Shown here: in pieces, positions 27,839 to 62,428 of the stretch
Numbering within the stretch: position 1 is the stretch's first letter
How the letters are laid out: every line of letters begins with the position of its first letter
Origin: a bacterium
Lineage (GTDB): Bacteria > Patescibacteriota > Minisyncoccia > Phycocordibacterales > UBA6899
Length of the DNA stretch: 64,000 nucleotides
Reading direction: 5' to 3'
NCBI GenBank assembly: GCA_021851895.1
Contig: JAJZQJ010000004.1
Location: forward strand, 9,127-73,126
Notes under the pieces: generated by a model
The model's input: only the letters and a program-made list of their open reading frames with translations
The model's database searches: none
What the model was told of the DNA's origin: nothing
Made by a program: the position numbers and the translations under genes

Positions 27839-27953
27839 TTTTGGCGCTCGCTGTACAGCAATATATTTTTGGAATATTAAGCGCTTCTACGGGAGGAAAT
27901 GGGAAAGTATAGAAAAGCGTATATATAGATTCATTTTTCTGTGGAATGGTCGC

Positions 27954-27981
27954 TTGACAGTATTTCGGATTCTGCTATACT
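27954..27981 (+). promoter_or_regulatory. rRNA promoter P1, TTGACA-16-TATACT
   Basis: consensus hexamers. Confidence 0.55.
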
Positions 27982-28055
27982 CGTCATCAGCTCACGAGGA
28001 ATTTGGTCCGCAGGAATCAGCCTAAAAGTCGAAATACTGCAGGGGAGAAAATTGC

Positions 28056-28083
28056 TTGACAGTTTTCAAAATCCGAATATACT
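28056..28083 (+). promoter_or_regulatory. rRNA promoter P2, TTGACA-16-TATACT
   Basis: second near-identical promoter 100 nt downstream of P1. Confidence 0.55.
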
Positions 28084-28421
28084 TGAGAGCACCTGAAATA
28101 TGTTTAACTCCTACTAAGAAACGCAACTTGCACGGACGTCTTAAACAGACATCTGCGCGCAAAGCGCTTTTTTATTCGGAAAACGATTCGGGTACGAACA
28201 TTGAAAATTGAATCCACTGATGATTGTGAGGAGATGAGTAATCGACTTGCGTGAATCATACAGTGTAACAAAAGGTGTAATCATTGAGCAACACTCTGAG
28301 AAGCACTCTTCTATTAAGAATTTTCTCGAAAGAGAGGTCTTTTCGTCGGAAGAGCAGCGAAGAACAGAGAAAAGTAGATCGTGTAGTACACGATCCACTC
28401 GAATATGTTGCGGTTATGGTT

Positions 28422-31400
<2,979 letters not shown>

Positions 31401-31513: not shown

Positions 31514-31638
31514 GCATTGATAGAGGTGGCTCGACGTTGTGGACCCACCCGGTCTCATTCCGAACCCGGAAGTGAAACATGATAGTGCCGATGATACTCC
31601 TCAGAAGGGGGAAAAGTAGGTAGCTGCCTCGATCAATG
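31514..31638 (+). rRNA. rrf: 5S ribosomal RNA
   Basis: ccggaagtgaaacatgatagtgccgatg... typical 5S; terminal helix cattgatagaggtggc / gctgcctcgatcaatg. Confidence 0.8.
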
Positions 31639-32290
31639 TAAAGAATGTAGAAAAACACCAGCGATGGTGTTTTTCTTTTTTTGGAGAAAATTCTAAATGC
31701 TTGGTCTCTTCCTTGCGGAAGAGTCATTGATTATTCAGAAGGGGTCAAAGTAAGAACGCCCCTTCGGGGACCAGGGCGTTCTTGCCCGACAAGGTGTCGC
31801 CACTGCGACGCTGTTCAACTCAAGCCGTCGCTCCGCTCCGTCTCTCACGGGTAGGTACGCTGCCTCGATCAATGCAAAGAATAAAGAAGCACCCGAAAGG
31901 GTGTTTTTCTTTATATATTCAATTCTCGATGCGCGGTCTCTCCCCTTTGGGGAGAGTCATTGATTTGTCCGGAAGTGAAACATGATAAGAACGCCGCCGA
32001 GGACGGCGGACCAGGGCGTTCTTGCCCGACAAGGAGCGGCCACCGCCGCCCACTTCAACTCACGCCTCAGCTGCGCTGAGTCGCTCACGGGTAAGCCGAT
32101 GATACATAAATACATCTGTTTACCACGGGTAGGAACGCTGCCTCGATCAATGCAAAGAATAGAAATAAAACACCAGTAATGGTGTTTTTTGATAATCCCT
32201 CAATGCTCGATTTCTTCCTTGCGGAAGAGTCAGAAATTTTTTTCGAAGAGGTATGAAAAGAGACGTTTAGGACGAACATCATAAACGTCC
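31611..32290 (+). repeat. about 2.7 degenerate tandem repeats of ~240 nt, each = 5S 3'-end-like segment + terminator hairpin + structured hairpins
   Basis: gtaggta.gctgcctcgatcaatg.aaagaat recurs at 31614, 31851, 32130; unit 2 also repeats 5S-internal ggaagtgaaacatgata. Confidence 0.75.
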
Positions 32291-32315: not shown

Positions 32316-32343
32316 TTGACATTTTGTCAGCTTGAATTAATAT
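32316..32343 (+). promoter_or_regulatory. promoter TTGACA-16-TAATAT upstream of the tRNA-like RNA; a degenerate copy of the same motif at 32494-32516
   Basis: hexamers read from sequence. Confidence 0.45.
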
Positions 32344-32377
32344 TATGAAGCTCCGTTCTTTCCGAGTACATCCCCAG

Positions 32378-32442
32378 GGGGCCGTCAGGCCGACGTTTGC
32401 GCTGTGCTCAAACGCATGGGTTCGATCCCATCGGCCCCGCCA
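32378..32442 (+). ncRNA. tRNA-like small RNA (acceptor stem ggggccg/cggcccc + T-arm + encoded GCCA 3' end; non-canonical D/anticodon region) with its own terminator at 32453-32478
   Basis: atgggttcgatcccat T-arm-like, 7-bp acceptor pairing, discriminator G + CCA; only ~31 nt between acceptor and T-arm, T-loop 6 nt. Confidence 0.3.
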
Positions 32443-32556
32443 GGGAACTTTACGCCTCCTCCGGGGGGCTTTTGTTTTGTTACAAATTTGTTATTGACAT
32501 TTTGAATTAATATTGTATCTTGTGTACGTTCAGCTCTTTCCAACAAGGAGGATTCC

Positions 32557-32973
32557 ATGTCACCAGAGGATGAGGTTTGTATGCGTGATCGGGCCTACAT
32601 CGAGAAGATGCTCGGGCTGACGCTCGCGAAACTCGAGCTCGCCATGCGTGGCGTCGTATCGCATAATCTGCTCTCCGCGGAGAGCTGCGTCTCGAGCACG
32701 CTTTTCTGCGCTTTTGATCCGGCGTATCACATGCAGGGGTCGCACGATGACCTCGTCGAGCAGGAACTCGGGAGGGTGCACGCTGCGCTCAGGCAGGCGG
32801 TTGCTTCGTCGAGTGATGAGGCTGCATTTGCTGCTGCGATCCTCGATGCTGCTGTCGTCATCGTTGACGCTGCTGCGGTGCTCCGTGGCGGCACTGCACC
32901 GACGATCTTCGTCGCTGTTCGGACGGATATTGCGATGCAGTACATCGAATTCGCGGCTTTGCAGCCCCTTTAA
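32557..32973 (+). CDS. hypothetical protein
   Basis: RBS aaggaggattccATG; terminator ggacgtttacgc...gcgtaaacgtcc at 32984-33015. Confidence 0.45.
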   Translation: MSPEDEVCMRDRAYIEKMLGLTLAKLELAMRGVVSHNLLSAESCVSSTLFCAFDPAYHMQGSHDDLVEQELGRVHAALRQAVASSSDEAAFAAAILDAAVVIVDAAAVLRGGTAPTIFVAVRTDIAMQYIEFAALQPL

Positions 32974-33180
32974 TCTTCATTTCGGACGTTTACGCTGTTT
33001 GGCGTAAACGTCCTTTTCTTTAGCATACTGCATTGACTTTTCCGTGAAAAACAGTAATATGTAAGTCAACGCTGAAGACAGCAGGTGTCCCGATAAAGGG
33101 GCTTAATCTCCTGCCGAAGTAACCAACTCTACCCCTTTTTGGGGCGGTTGATCTTCTCGTTAAGGTCGATCTTTTTATTA

Positions 33181-33274
33181 GTGAGAAGTAAGAAGTGAGA
33201 AGTGAGAAGAAATTCAATATACCTCAGGGTTCTTGAATTTCCTTCTTTCTTCTTGCTTCTCACTTCTTACTTAT
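33181..33274. repeat. heptamer-built inverted-repeat element, copy 3
   Basis: left arm gtgagaagtaagaagtgagaagtgagaag, right arm cttctttcttcttgcttctcacttcttac; immediately upstream of rplJ. Confidence 0.8.
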
Positions 33275-33281
33275 TACATAT

Positions 33282-62039: not shown

Positions 62040-62428
62040 GGGGATGACTTGGCTTCGACAAGTTGACTCGTAGTGAATCGTGCGTGCCGGAGATGCCGAT
62101 TGTCTCCGCAAAAACATCGGTAAACCATAAGTGCAAACAAAAGCACCGGAGTTGCTTCACCATATTTTGGTGCCAAGGACTTCTCATTCGCATACGCATA
62201 ATTGCGGCGACGTGGCATAGGGAGGACTCCTTATAGGCTCTATCCCACGATCACTTCATAAGGATAGGTGACTTCCGTACGATAAGTCATTCGAACATTA
62301 AGTACTCGTGTTGAGTGAATTTTGTTTCTTTCATATCACTCTTCATTAAACACTTAAAGAAACTACGCCCGTAGAAACATTCATTACTTCGATTTGGACG
62401 GGGGTTCAATTCCCCCCATCTCCACAAA
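62040..62428 (+). ncRNA. ssrA: tmRNA (SsrA); predicted tag ANKSTGVASPYFGAKDFSFAYA; CCA not encoded
   Basis: 5' ggggatgacttggcttcgaca..., 3' ...ggacgggggttcaattccccccatctcca; resume codon GCA then ORF ending ...FAYA taa; terminator 62432-62468; adjacent to smpB. Confidence 0.8.

What the first reader, a model, noticed from the sequence alone, without database searches (positions are those of the whole stretch)
32316..32478. Promoter-driven tRNA-like small RNA with non-canonical cloverleaf
A TTGACA-16-TAATAT promoter lies ~35 nt upstream, and a terminator hairpin (gcctcctccggggggc+tttt) lies ~10 nt downstream, of a 65-nt sequence. That sequence has a 7-bp acceptor stem (ggggccg/cggcccc), discriminator G, encoded CCA, and a T-arm-like atggg-ttcgat-cccat. 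However, only ~31 nt lie between the acceptor and the T-arm (one 6-bp stem cgtttg/caaacg with a 9-nt loop, no D-arm), and the T-loop is 6 nt. It is not the tmRNA, since a bona fide tmRNA is at 62040. Candidates are an armless/minimal tRNA (as in some reduced genomes), a tRNA-like RNase P substrate used as a processing signal, or a tRNA-derived regulatory RNA. The promoter motif is partially duplicated again at 32494-32516 in front of the next CDS.
Basis: partly seen in the sequence, partly recalled or inferred. Interest (0 to 1): 0.55.

Follow-up and report, generated by a model that had tools for sequence, protein, structure and literature searches.

The report
Conserved non-decoding tRNA-shaped small RNA gene
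Between the ribosomal RNA genes and the L10 gene of an uncultured Paceibacteria (CPR) bacterium lies a small gene with its own promoter and terminator, encoding a 65-nt RNA that keeps a tRNA's acceptor end and T-arm but has no D-arm and no anticodon; four related lineages preserve it with compensating base changes, so it is real, but its job is unknown.

Summary
A TTGACA-16-TAATAT promoter (32316-32343) precedes a 65-nt tRNA-shaped sequence (32378-32442), and an intrinsic terminator follows (32454-32478). A descriptor for acceptor stem, T-arm and NCCA hits only this site in the window and none of 200 shuffles.

ARAGORN and Rfam do not call it. Three other Paceibacteria lineages (L002, L164, L162) carry the same unit between 5S rRNA and the L10 operon. 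In them, 95% of stem cells pair and five pairs change on both sides, three of them in the T-stem. The acceptor stem plus GCCA is almost invariant (1 of 18 columns vary against 27 of 52 elsewhere), while the rest of the most divergent copy (L162) has drifted at about the rate of synonymous sites. Promoter and terminator persist in all four, and the terminator stem and a short leader-trailer helix covary.

The middle hairpin is a 9-10 bp stem capped by UGU, CGU, UAU or CUGG, so there is no conserved anticodon and the RNA cannot decode. In L164 and L162 a second, ~94-nt tRNA-like unit with G3·U70 precedes it.

Best reading: a stable, non-decoding tRNA mimic whose acceptor end is the working part. 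Maturation by tRNA-processing enzymes and any aminoacylation are inferred, not shown. Function is unknown.

The parts
32316..32343 (+). Promoter P1: -35 TTGACA (32316-32321), 16-nt spacer, -10 TAATAT (32338-32343)
   Evidence: 10 of 12 consensus matches. Both hexamers are conserved in L002, L164 and L162 (alignment A2).
32350..32377 (+). Predicted 5' leader of about 28 nt, containing the invariant GTTCTTTCC (32355-32363). The transcription start is inferred from the -10 position.
   Evidence: GTTCTTTCC is invariant in all four lineages. In L164 and L162 the extra unit A is inserted directly after this motif.
32378..32442 (+). tRNA-shaped RNA ('unit B'), 65 nt. Acceptor 5' strand 32378-32384; connector 32385-32393 (in place of a D-arm); central hairpin 32394-32414; C 32415; T-arm 32416-32431 (loop TTCGAT 32421-32426); acceptor 3' strand 32432-32438; G73 32439; CCA 32440-32442.
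   Evidence: Sequence. The MFE fold gives exactly this three-way junction. On four homologues 95% of stem cells pair, five pairs change on both sides, and slid controls give 32-54%. Acceptor plus NCCA varies in 1 of 18 columns against 27 of 52 elsewhere, Fisher p = 5e-4. It is unique in the window and absent from 200 shuffles.
32371..32375 (+). Leader strand of a short leader-trailer helix (UCCC/CCC)
   Evidence: Present in the MFE of the whole transcript. RNAalifold predicts it independently with covariation: UCCC/GGGA, UCCCU/AGGGA, AUCUCU/AGAGAU, CUCUUU/AAAGAG.
32442..32446 (+). Trailer strand of the leader-trailer helix (A76 plus GGGA)
32454..32478 (+). Intrinsic terminator: GCCTCC-TCCG-GGGGGC followed by TTTTGTTTT
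   Evidence: A hairpin plus T run is present in all four lineages with different stem sequences (CCACTC/GAGTGG in L164, CCCCA/TGGGG in L162).
32494..32521 (+). Adjacent promoter P2 (TTGACA-16-TATCTT) for the downstream 138-aa ORF. It is a paralogue of P1 and its leader, not part of the RNA gene.
   Evidence: family D7. The leader GCTCTTTCC lies at 32533. By eye, a TTGAC(A/T)-16-TAnnnT promoter sits at the same place in L002, L164 and L162.

Best explanation
This is a separate gene for a small, stable, non-decoding tRNA-shaped RNA. Promoter P1 starts a transcript of about 125 nt that ends at the intrinsic terminator. The RNA folds into a three-way junction. One arm is a 7-bp acceptor stem stacked on a 5-bp T-arm, the 12-bp 'minihelix' of a tRNA. 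An unpaired 9-nt connector replaces the D-arm. A 9-10 bp hairpin closed by a 3-4 nt loop stands where the anticodon arm would be. Because it has the minihelix, a T-loop and an encoded GCCA, it is most likely matured like a tRNA: RNase P cuts at G1 and the 3' trailer is trimmed back to CCA (inferred, not shown). It cannot read codons. Selection acts on the sequence of the acceptor end and on the pairing of the other stems. The working part is therefore the acceptor/T-arm end, acting as a substrate or mimic for a protein that recognises tRNA acceptor ends, such as an aminoacyl-tRNA synthetase, an aminoacyl-tRNA-dependent transferase, EF-Tu or a tRNA-end enzyme. Which partner it has, and whether it is charged, is unknown. 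It probably arose from tRNA genes distal to the 23S-5S operon. In two relatives it is the second of two tandem tRNA-like units.
For: Shown. (1) Anatomy, promoter and terminator are as described. (2) The fold is not chance: 0 hits in 200 shuffles. (3) Homologues lie in the same position (23S-5S, repeats, unit, ORF, L10, L7/L12) in L002, L164 and L162/L163, from independent assemblies. (4) The structure is conserved: 95.2% of cells pair against 32-54% when partners are slid. Five pairs change on both sides, including ATGGG/CCCAT, GTGGG/CCCAC and GAAGG/CCTTC in the T-stem. RNAalifold recovers the same fold plus a covarying leader-trailer helix and terminator. (5) Rates are uneven: 1 of 18 variable columns in acceptor plus NCCA against 27 of 52 elsewhere, p = 5e-4. 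Four-fold synonymous sites of L10, L12 and MetRS between the window and L162/L164 are only 41-78% identical. Outside the acceptor, the L162 copy has drifted at about the neutral rate while keeping its pairs. (6) It is not coding: lengths of 65, 64, 67 and 70 nt break any reading frame. (7) It is non-decoding: the apical loops are UGU, CGU, UAU and CUGG on long stems. (8) CCA is encoded in all six tRNA-like units, but not in the window's tmRNA and in only about 4 of 12 ordinary tRNAs of related loci. Inferred from established knowledge: an acceptor/T-arm minihelix with 3' RCCA is a sufficient substrate for bacterial RNase P, and G3·U70 (present in L162 unit B and both unit A copies) is the major AlaRS identity element.
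Against: There are no expression data. Only four lineages are known, and three of them are close, so the covariation rests on few independent events. The L162 copy differs so much from L164 (23 of 70 columns, although MetRS four-fold sites are 88% identical) that part of it may have been swapped in by recombination rather than by stepwise compensation. The T-loop is 6 nt in three lineages and 7 nt in one. L002 has a bulged T-stem. Position 70 is C in three lineages and U in one, which would change Ala identity. Unit A was lost (or never gained) in the window's clade. These irregularities fit a loosely constrained or dispensable RNA. The flanking intergenic DNA is also 80-85% identical, so raw conservation alone proves little. 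No partner protein is identified. The adjacent ORF is an uninformative helical bundle.
Confidence: 0.68

Rival explanations
1. Decaying relic. The units are remnants of tRNA genes that once followed the 5S gene. They have lost the D-arm and anticodon, are perhaps still transcribed, and have no function.
For: The distribution is narrow. The unit is absent next to L10 in the next relatives L003, L165, L168 and L169. Unit A is lost in the window and L002. There is a 6-nt T-loop, a bulged T-stem in L002, a variable central hairpin and a C70/U70 difference. The neighbourhood is full of 5S-derived pseudo-copies.
Against: At the window-L162 distance, four-fold sites are about 52% identical when L10, L12 and MetRS are pooled. 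Yet the 14 acceptor-stem bases show a single, wobble-preserving change, and GCCA shows none. Three T-stem pairs changed on both sides and still pair. Promoter, terminator and leader-trailer helix are all retained, the last two with compensating changes. None of the seven window-L164 substitutions breaks a pair.
Confidence: 0.12
2. Processing signal only. The tRNA shape recruits RNase P and 3' trimming enzymes to cut the transcript, and the useful product is something else, such as the conserved leader or the spacer.
For: The leader motif GTTCTTTCC is invariant. The leader-trailer helix looks like a precursor feature. tRNA-like punctuation is a known principle; mascRNA is one of the two best Rfam resemblances, at 22.9 bits.
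Against: The transcript holds nothing else of size: a leader of about 28 nt and a trailer of about 11 nt before the terminator. The same leader motif recurs as GCTCTTTCC in the P2 leader, so its conservation may be promoter-linked. Invariance of the acceptor sequence, not only its pairing, is more than RNase P needs.
Confidence: 0.07
3. A tmRNA-like tRNA-domain-only RNA. It would be a paralogue or analogue of the tRNA-like domain of tmRNA that enters ribosomes with SmpB, or competes for SmpB, EF-Tu or AlaRS.
For: The architecture is the same: acceptor, unpaired D-region, one long helix, T-arm, no anticodon. The 5' end GGGGCCGUCAGGCCGAC loosely resembles the window's tmRNA 5' end GGGGAUGACUUGGCUUCGAC. 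G3·U70 is present in L162 unit B and in both unit A copies.
Against: G3-C70 in the window, L002 and L164 removes the Ala identity that defines tmRNA charging. The discriminator is G, not A. No tmRNA family matches at E <= 10. The tmRNA UUCGAC motif is absent, and the connector is not conserved in L162. A complete tmRNA exists in the same window.
Confidence: 0.05
4. Cis-acting leader or attenuator. The tRNA-like fold plus terminator would control read-through from P1 into the ORF and L10 operon.
For: The layout of promoter, structured RNA and terminator, followed by genes on the same strand, resembles an attenuator.
Against: All four lineages have a second promoter, P2, after the terminator. 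No conserved alternative (antiterminator) pairing exists: the window's terminator strand could pair with the acceptor, but L164's (CCACTC/GAGTGG) cannot. The genuine L10 leader RF00557 lies much further downstream, directly before L10, in L162 and L164.
Confidence: 0.04
5. A real decoding D-armless tRNA of a reduced genome.
For: It has a 7-bp acceptor, T-arm, discriminator and CCA. The window and L002 could be drawn with loops centred on UGU and CGU, both Thr anticodons.
Against: There is no 7-nt loop with U33 in any copy. L164 has a GC-rich stem closed by UAU, and L162 a CUGG tetraloop. The variable region is 0-1 nt. ARAGORN calls none of them. The Rfam tRNA model finds no match in the window at E <= 10, and L162 scores 25.8 bits, below the gathering score of 29.
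Confidence: 0.02

Closest known systems
tRNA-like domain (TLD) of tmRNA (Rfam RF00023 and its clan)
   Same: 7-bp GC-rich acceptor stem starting GGGG. No D-stem: an unpaired purine-rich connector with GG instead. A single long helix in place of the anticodon arm. A T-arm abutting the acceptor. No anticodon. Stable-RNA promoter and terminator.
   Different: No mRNA-like reading frame or pseudoknots. G3-C70 rather than G3·U70 in three of four lineages. Discriminator G instead of A. A 6-nt T-loop. No UUCGAC motif. No Rfam tmRNA match. A normal tmRNA is present in the same window.
mascRNA / menRNA tRNA-like RNAs (Rfam RF01684)
   Same: About 60 nt, with acceptor and T-arm, a rudimentary D-region and a non-decoding middle hairpin. 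One of the two best Rfam resemblances: L162 unit B scores 22.9 bits, E = 0.016.
   Different: Those are eukaryotic RNAs cut from the 3' end of long non-coding RNAs, and CCA is added after transcription. Here the gene is bacterial, with its own promoter and an encoded CCA. The score is far below the gathering score of 42.5.
D-armless mitochondrial tRNAs (for example metazoan tRNA-Ser(AGN))
   Same: The D-arm is replaced by a short unpaired connector, while acceptor and T-arm are retained.
   Different: Those keep a 5-bp anticodon stem and a 7-nt loop with a fixed anticodon, and they decode. This RNA has neither.
Non-canonical bacterial tRNA-like RNAs of unknown or non-translational role (tRNA-Other of Bacillus cereus; irregular tRNA polycistrons described in PMC5389517; YrlA Y-RNA tRNA-like modules, PMC4201824)
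   Same: Bacterial, tRNA-derived shape, missed or mis-called by tRNA finders, sometimes in tandem, function outside ordinary decoding.
   Different: tRNA-Other and allo-tRNAs keep a full cloverleaf with an anticodon loop. YrlA has no CCA end and pairs its termini for Ro binding. No sequence relationship to any of these was found.

Membership tests
Canonical tRNA (Rfam RF00005; ARAGORN) | 7-bp acceptor stem, discriminator base and 3' CCA site | tested here: met
   GGGGCCG/CGGCCCC, G73 and an encoded CCA. All 7 acceptor pairs are standard in all four homologues.
Canonical tRNA (Rfam RF00005; ARAGORN) | T-arm: 5-bp stem and 7-nt UUCRANN loop | tested here: inconclusive
   The stem is met and covaries. 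The loop is UUCGAU (6 nt) in the window, L002 and L164, and UUCAACU (7 nt) in L162.
Canonical tRNA (Rfam RF00005; ARAGORN) | D-arm (3-4 bp stem with a GG-containing loop) | tested here: not met
   Only an unpaired 8-9 nt connector lies between the acceptor and the middle hairpin in every fold.
Canonical tRNA (Rfam RF00005; ARAGORN) | 5-bp anticodon stem, 7-nt loop with U33 and a conserved anticodon | tested here: not met
   The stems are 9-10 bp and are capped by UGU, CGU, UAU or CUGG.
Canonical tRNA (Rfam RF00005; ARAGORN) | Detected by family models at their thresholds | tested here: not met
   ARAGORN finds none. Rfam tRNA gives no match in the window at E <= 10. L162 scores 25.8 bits, below the gathering score of 29.
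tmRNA (RF00023 and permuted or mitochondrial variants) | G3·U70 alanine identity pair and A73 | tested here: not met
   The window has G3-C70 and G73. Only L162 unit B and the unit A copies have G3·U70.
tmRNA (RF00023 and permuted or mitochondrial variants) | mRNA-like tag reading frame and pseudoknots | tested here: not met
   The RNA is 65 nt in total with one hairpin between acceptor and T-arm. No tmRNA-clan match at E <= 10.
tmRNA (RF00023 and permuted or mitochondrial variants) | Binding of SmpB to the tRNA-like domain and entry into stalled ribosomes | not testable with these tools
   This needs biochemistry.
mascRNA-menRNA (RF01684) | Reaches the family gathering score, and is cut from the 3' end of a eukaryotic long non-coding RNA | tested here: not met
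   22.9 bits against 42.5. The gene is bacterial and has its own promoter.
Ribosomal protein L10 leader (RF00557) | Matches the L10 leader model directly upstream of rplJ | tested here: not met
   The L10 leader is a separate element, at L164 9825-9959 and L162 9812-9944, about 600-1,100 nt downstream of the tRNA-like unit.
RNase P substrate (functional class) | Acceptor/T-stem stack of 12 bp, a T-loop and 3' RCCA | tested here: met
   The sequence features are present in all four homologues. Actual cleavage was not tested.

The most novel reading that the evidence does not exclude
A clade of Paceibacteria maintains a dedicated operon of one or two anticodon-less tRNA mimics that are matured to a free GCCA end and aminoacylated, with alanine where G3·U70 is present. 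These RNAs would serve as amino-acid carriers outside codon-directed translation, for example in cell-wall or lipid aminoacylation or in a tag-less, tmRNA-like ribosome rescue. This would be a new class of bacterial 'acceptor-only' adaptor RNA.
Probability: 0.15. Interest if true: 0.8.

Novelty: new variant of a known kind. Interest (0 to 1): 0.6.

Why it matters
Bacterial tRNA-shaped RNAs that do not decode are few: the tmRNA tRNA-like domain, YrlA, and tRNA-Other of Bacillus cereus. Each has revealed a process that borrows the tRNA machinery. This one comes from the CPR/Patescibacteria, whose RNA biology is almost unexplored. It is invisible to ARAGORN and Rfam, and it shows a clear selection pattern: a frozen acceptor end, covarying stems and a free middle hairpin. 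That pattern points to an acceptor-end partner. If the RNA is charged, it would be an anticodon-less amino-acid carrier. If not, it would be a natural decoy for tRNA-end enzymes. Either way it gives a concrete, short RNA to test. It also warns that standard tRNA annotation of CPR genomes misses such genes.

Tried and rejected
1. ARAGORN on the window and on the related loci called neither unit B nor unit A.

2. Rfam at gathering scores found only 23S, 5S, tmRNA and the L10 leader. In E-value mode it gave only sub-threshold matches to tRNA, tRNA-Sec and mascRNA, plus a chance hammerhead fragment in L164 alone.

3. A structure-anchored DNA pattern scanned against three collections gave nothing useful:
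- Genome contigs returned 0 hits. This null is suspect. The same pattern without CCA found more than 30 tRNA-Tyr 3' parts ending CCCCACCA in viral contigs derived from isolates, so some genome hits were expected.
- Viral contigs returned 41 false positives.
- Metagenome contigs returned 38 false positives, none with a 7-bp acceptor. L002 itself was not recovered, so this collection does not hold it.

4. L10-anchored loci from 80 species genomes had no homologue by BLAST, by my descriptor or by covariance model R1 across 1.18 Mb. The extra R1 hits were ordinary tRNAs or, in L054, a coding region.

5. Further L10 relatives either lacked the rRNA synteny or sat on contigs too short to reach the unit.

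6. The downstream ORF has only four family members in 5.8e9 proteins, no Pfam match and a confident helical-bundle model with no fold match. It gave no functional clue.

7. No similarity was found to phage or plasmid records.

8. I rejected a boxA reading of the leader motif GTTCTTTCC. The 23S leader does not carry it and near-copies are common in the window.

9. I rejected an antiterminator reading, because the possible alternative pairing in the window is not conserved.

10. I rejected a coding reading of the overlapping 50-aa ORF (32345-32497), because indels in the relatives shift the frame.

Full report
**Context**

The window comes from a Patescibacteria (CPR) genome of the Paceibacteria/Parcubacteria type. 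The closest L10 relatives in species genomes are all MAGs named Paceibacterota, Parcubacteria or Saccharibacteria.

The local order of features is:
- two promoters in front of 23S rRNA, then 23S rRNA at 28429-31395;
- 5S rRNA at 31522-31632;
- about 2.5 tandem units made of partial 5S copies, each with a terminator;
- the finding;
- a 138-aa ORF, then L10, L7/L12, a pilin-like protein and MetRS.

**Step 1: the observation**

- The promoter is TTGACA-16-TAATAT at 32316-32343.
- The element runs from 32378 to 32442 (65 nt) and has these parts:
  - a 7-bp acceptor stem GGGGCCG/CGGCCCC;
  - a 9-nt connector;
  - one hairpin;
  - a single C;
  - the T-arm ATGGG-TTCGAT-CCCAT;
  - discriminator G, then CCA.
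- The terminator is GCCTCCTCCGGGGGGC plus a T run at 32454-32478.
- The partial promoter repeat at 32494 is real and scores as a second promoter, TTGACA-16-TATCTT.
- The tmRNA at 62040-62427 is genuine.

I wrote a descriptor to test for chance. It requires a 7-bp acceptor, an abutting 5-bp T-stem, a TTCRA loop of 6-7 nt and NCCA. It hits only this site in the window and none of 200 dinucleotide-preserving shuffles. The element has no similarity to the post-5S repeat units.

**Step 2: standard detectors**

- ARAGORN reports only the tmRNA.
- Rfam at gathering scores reports 23S, 5S and tmRNA.
- With E <= 10 on the 1.2-kb region, no tRNA, tmRNA or other relevant family matches the element.

**Step 3: relatives**

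DNA-pattern scans of the genome, viral and metagenome collections gave nothing useful. The genome null is suspect and the metagenome collection lacks the one known relative, so these are weak negatives.

Protein-anchored retrieval worked.
- The neighbouring ORF has one 80%-identical homologue. Its contig, L002, carries the whole unit.
- L10 homologues of 87-88% identity led to two more loci. L162 is from GCA_035583355.1, with an identical Logan copy, L163. L164 is from a groundwater metagenome. Both have the same order of 23S, 5S, repeats, unit, ORF, L10 leader, L10 and L7/L12.
- More distant L10 relatives (81% identity or less) have a different neighbourhood and no unit nearby.

So four distinct lineages are known, plus identical copies from independent assemblies (L001, L163).

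**Step 4: what is conserved**

Alignment A2 shows that the -35 and -10 hexamers, the leader motif GTTCTTTCC, the element and a terminator are present in all four lineages.

On the four element sequences (A4), the three-way-junction structure behaves as follows:
- 95.2% of stem cells form standard pairs, against 32-54% when the partners are slid.
- Five pairs change on both sides.
- Three of those lie in the five-pair T-stem: ATGGG/CCCAT, GTGGG/CCCAC and GAAGG/CCTTC.

RNAalifold on a longer stretch recovers the same fold. It also adds a short leader-trailer helix whose sequence differs in every lineage (UCCC/GGGA, UCCCU/AGGGA, AUCUCU/AGAGAU, CUCUUU/AAAGAG) and a covarying terminator.

Variation is very uneven. 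Only 1 of 18 columns varies in the acceptor stem plus GCCA, and that change is C70 to U, which still pairs. Elsewhere 27 of 52 columns vary (Fisher p = 5e-4). For scale, four-fold synonymous sites between the window and L162/L164 are 41% (MetRS), 58-62% (L10) and 76-78% (L12) identical. In the L162 copy, the connector, the middle hairpin and the T-stem have therefore drifted at about the neutral rate while keeping their pairs, and the acceptor end is frozen.

The lengths differ by amounts that are not multiples of three (65, 64, 67 and 70 nt). The overlapping 50-aa ORF is therefore not a gene.

**Step 5: it does not decode**

The middle hairpin folds as a 9-10 bp irregular stem closed by UGU (window), CGU (L002), UAU (L164) or CUGG (L162). 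There is no 7-nt loop with U33, no conserved triplet and almost no variable region. A decoding D-armless tRNA is excluded.

**Step 6: a second unit in relatives**

In L164 and L162 a ~94-nt unit A is inserted directly after the leader motif. It contains:
- a 7-bp acceptor GGGGCUG/CAGCUCC with G3·U70;
- a long irregular arm;
- a 6-9 bp hairpin;
- a 5-bp T-arm;
- U73 and CCA.

About 15 nt later comes unit B, the homologue of the finding. All four stem substitutions between the two unit A copies keep pairing through wobble pairs. The window and L002 lack unit A.

L162 unit B has a canonical 7-nt T-loop and G3·U70. It reaches 25.8 bits on the Rfam tRNA model (gathering score 29) and 22.9 bits on mascRNA-menRNA. 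L164 unit B gives only 13.9 bits on tRNA-Sec. ARAGORN calls none of them.

Covariance model R1 was built from the four unit B sequences. In 1.18 Mb of Paceibacteria loci it finds only those four, plus ordinary tRNAs and one weak hit inside a coding region of L054, at E >= 0.09.

**Step 7: what it is not**

- It is not the L10 leader. RF00557 matches a separate site directly before L10 in L162 and L164.
- It is not an attenuator. A second promoter follows the terminator in all four lineages, and no alternative pairing is conserved.
- It is not mobile or phage DNA. There is no match in the phage or plasmid collections.
- It is not a tmRNA. There is no tag frame, no pseudoknot, G3-C70 in three lineages, G73, and no tmRNA-clan match. 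The resemblance to the tmRNA tRNA-like domain is architectural only.

**Step 8: mechanism**

Shown:
- a conserved, independently promoted and terminated unit;
- a tRNA-like three-way junction maintained by compensating changes;
- an acceptor end under sequence constraint;
- no anticodon.

Inferred from established knowledge:
- The 12-bp acceptor/T-stem stack with a T-loop and 3' GCCA is what bacterial RNase P needs. The RNA is therefore probably cut at G1 and trimmed to the encoded CCA.
- CCA is encoded in all six units, but not in the window's tmRNA and in only about a third of ordinary tRNAs in related loci. This fits a need for a ready-made tRNA-type 3' end.
- Copies with G3·U70 should be alanylated by AlaRS. 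The window's copy has G3-C70 and should not be.

What the RNA does with its acceptor end is not known. It could be a charged carrier, a decoy or competitor for an acceptor-end enzyme, or a ribosome-entering mimic.

The neighbouring ORF occurs only in the same four lineages. Its model is a confident helical bundle (pLDDT 88) with no Pfam or fold match, so it gives no lead.

**Step 9: comparison and novelty**

The closest known things are the tmRNA tRNA-like domain, mascRNA, D-armless mitochondrial tRNAs and the loose group of irregular bacterial tRNA-like RNAs (PMC5389517, PMC4201824). It fails the defining tests of each family; see the membership table.

Full-text searches found no paper linking tRNA-like RNAs with Patescibacteria or describing one in the candidate phyla radiation (a single, unrelated paper on release-factor evolution). 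I rate it a new variant of a known kind: non-decoding tRNA mimics.

**Verdict**

The 'minimal tRNA' reading is rejected. The function is open. Interest is moderate to high (0.6). The selection pattern is clean and the lineage is poorly known, but only four lineages and no expression data are available.

Noticed in passing
window 31633-32240: About 2.5 tandem units downstream of 5S are built from partial 5S copies. A 19-nt exact copy of 5S 31566-31584 lies at 31969-31987. The 5S 3' end, with its processing-stem strand and a terminator, recurs at 31623, 31859 and 32137. A GC-rich insert separates the pieces. The array is conserved at 75-85% in L162 and L164.
   Followed up: partly
window 32494-32541: The second promoter P2 (TTGACA-16-TATCTT) and its leader GCTCTTTCC are a paralogue of P1 and its leader GTTCTTTCC. 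It looks as if the promoter-leader module was duplicated around the inserted RNA gene. A P2 is present in all four lineages.
   Followed up: partly
window 32557-32973: The 138-aa ORF directly downstream of the RNA gene has only four members in 5.8 billion proteins, exactly the four lineages that carry the RNA. The members are 25-30% identical across the clade. The AlphaFold model is a confident helical bundle (pLDDT 88) with no Pfam or PDB fold match.
   Followed up: yes
window 27940-28429: The rRNA operon here is 23S-5S only, with no 16S upstream in the window. It is preceded by two tandem TTGACA...TATACT promoters at about 27955 and 28055.
   Followed up: no
window 62040-62427: The tmRNA (tag ANKSTGVASPYFGAKDFSFAYA) has G3·U70 but no encoded CCA: the gene ends ...CATCTCCA|CAAAA. 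Every tRNA-like unit, by contrast, encodes CCA.
   Followed up: partly
L164 9039-9131 and L162 8562-8655: Unit A is a second, ~94-nt four-arm tRNA-like unit with a G3·U70 acceptor GGGGCUG/CAGCUCC, U73 and CCA. It is transcribed from the same promoter ahead of unit B in two relatives and is absent from the window and L002.
   Followed up: partly
L075 15935-16009: Another Paceibacterota MAG has an ARAGORN 'tRNA-???' with a 6-nt anticodon loop and a GCCA end, about 500 nt before its 5S gene. Irregular tRNA-like genes near rRNA may be more common in this group.
   Followed up: no
Genome-contig scan: The pattern scan of 185,579 species genomes returned zero hits. The same pattern without CCA matched more than 30 tRNA-Tyr 3' parts ending CCCCACCA in viral contigs derived from isolate genomes. 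That negative result should not be trusted.
   Followed up: no
L164 9825-9959, L162 9812-9944; window about 33100-33280: The L10 leader (RF00557) reaches its gathering score in both relatives, but nothing was reported at the equivalent place in the window at gathering scores.
   Followed up: no
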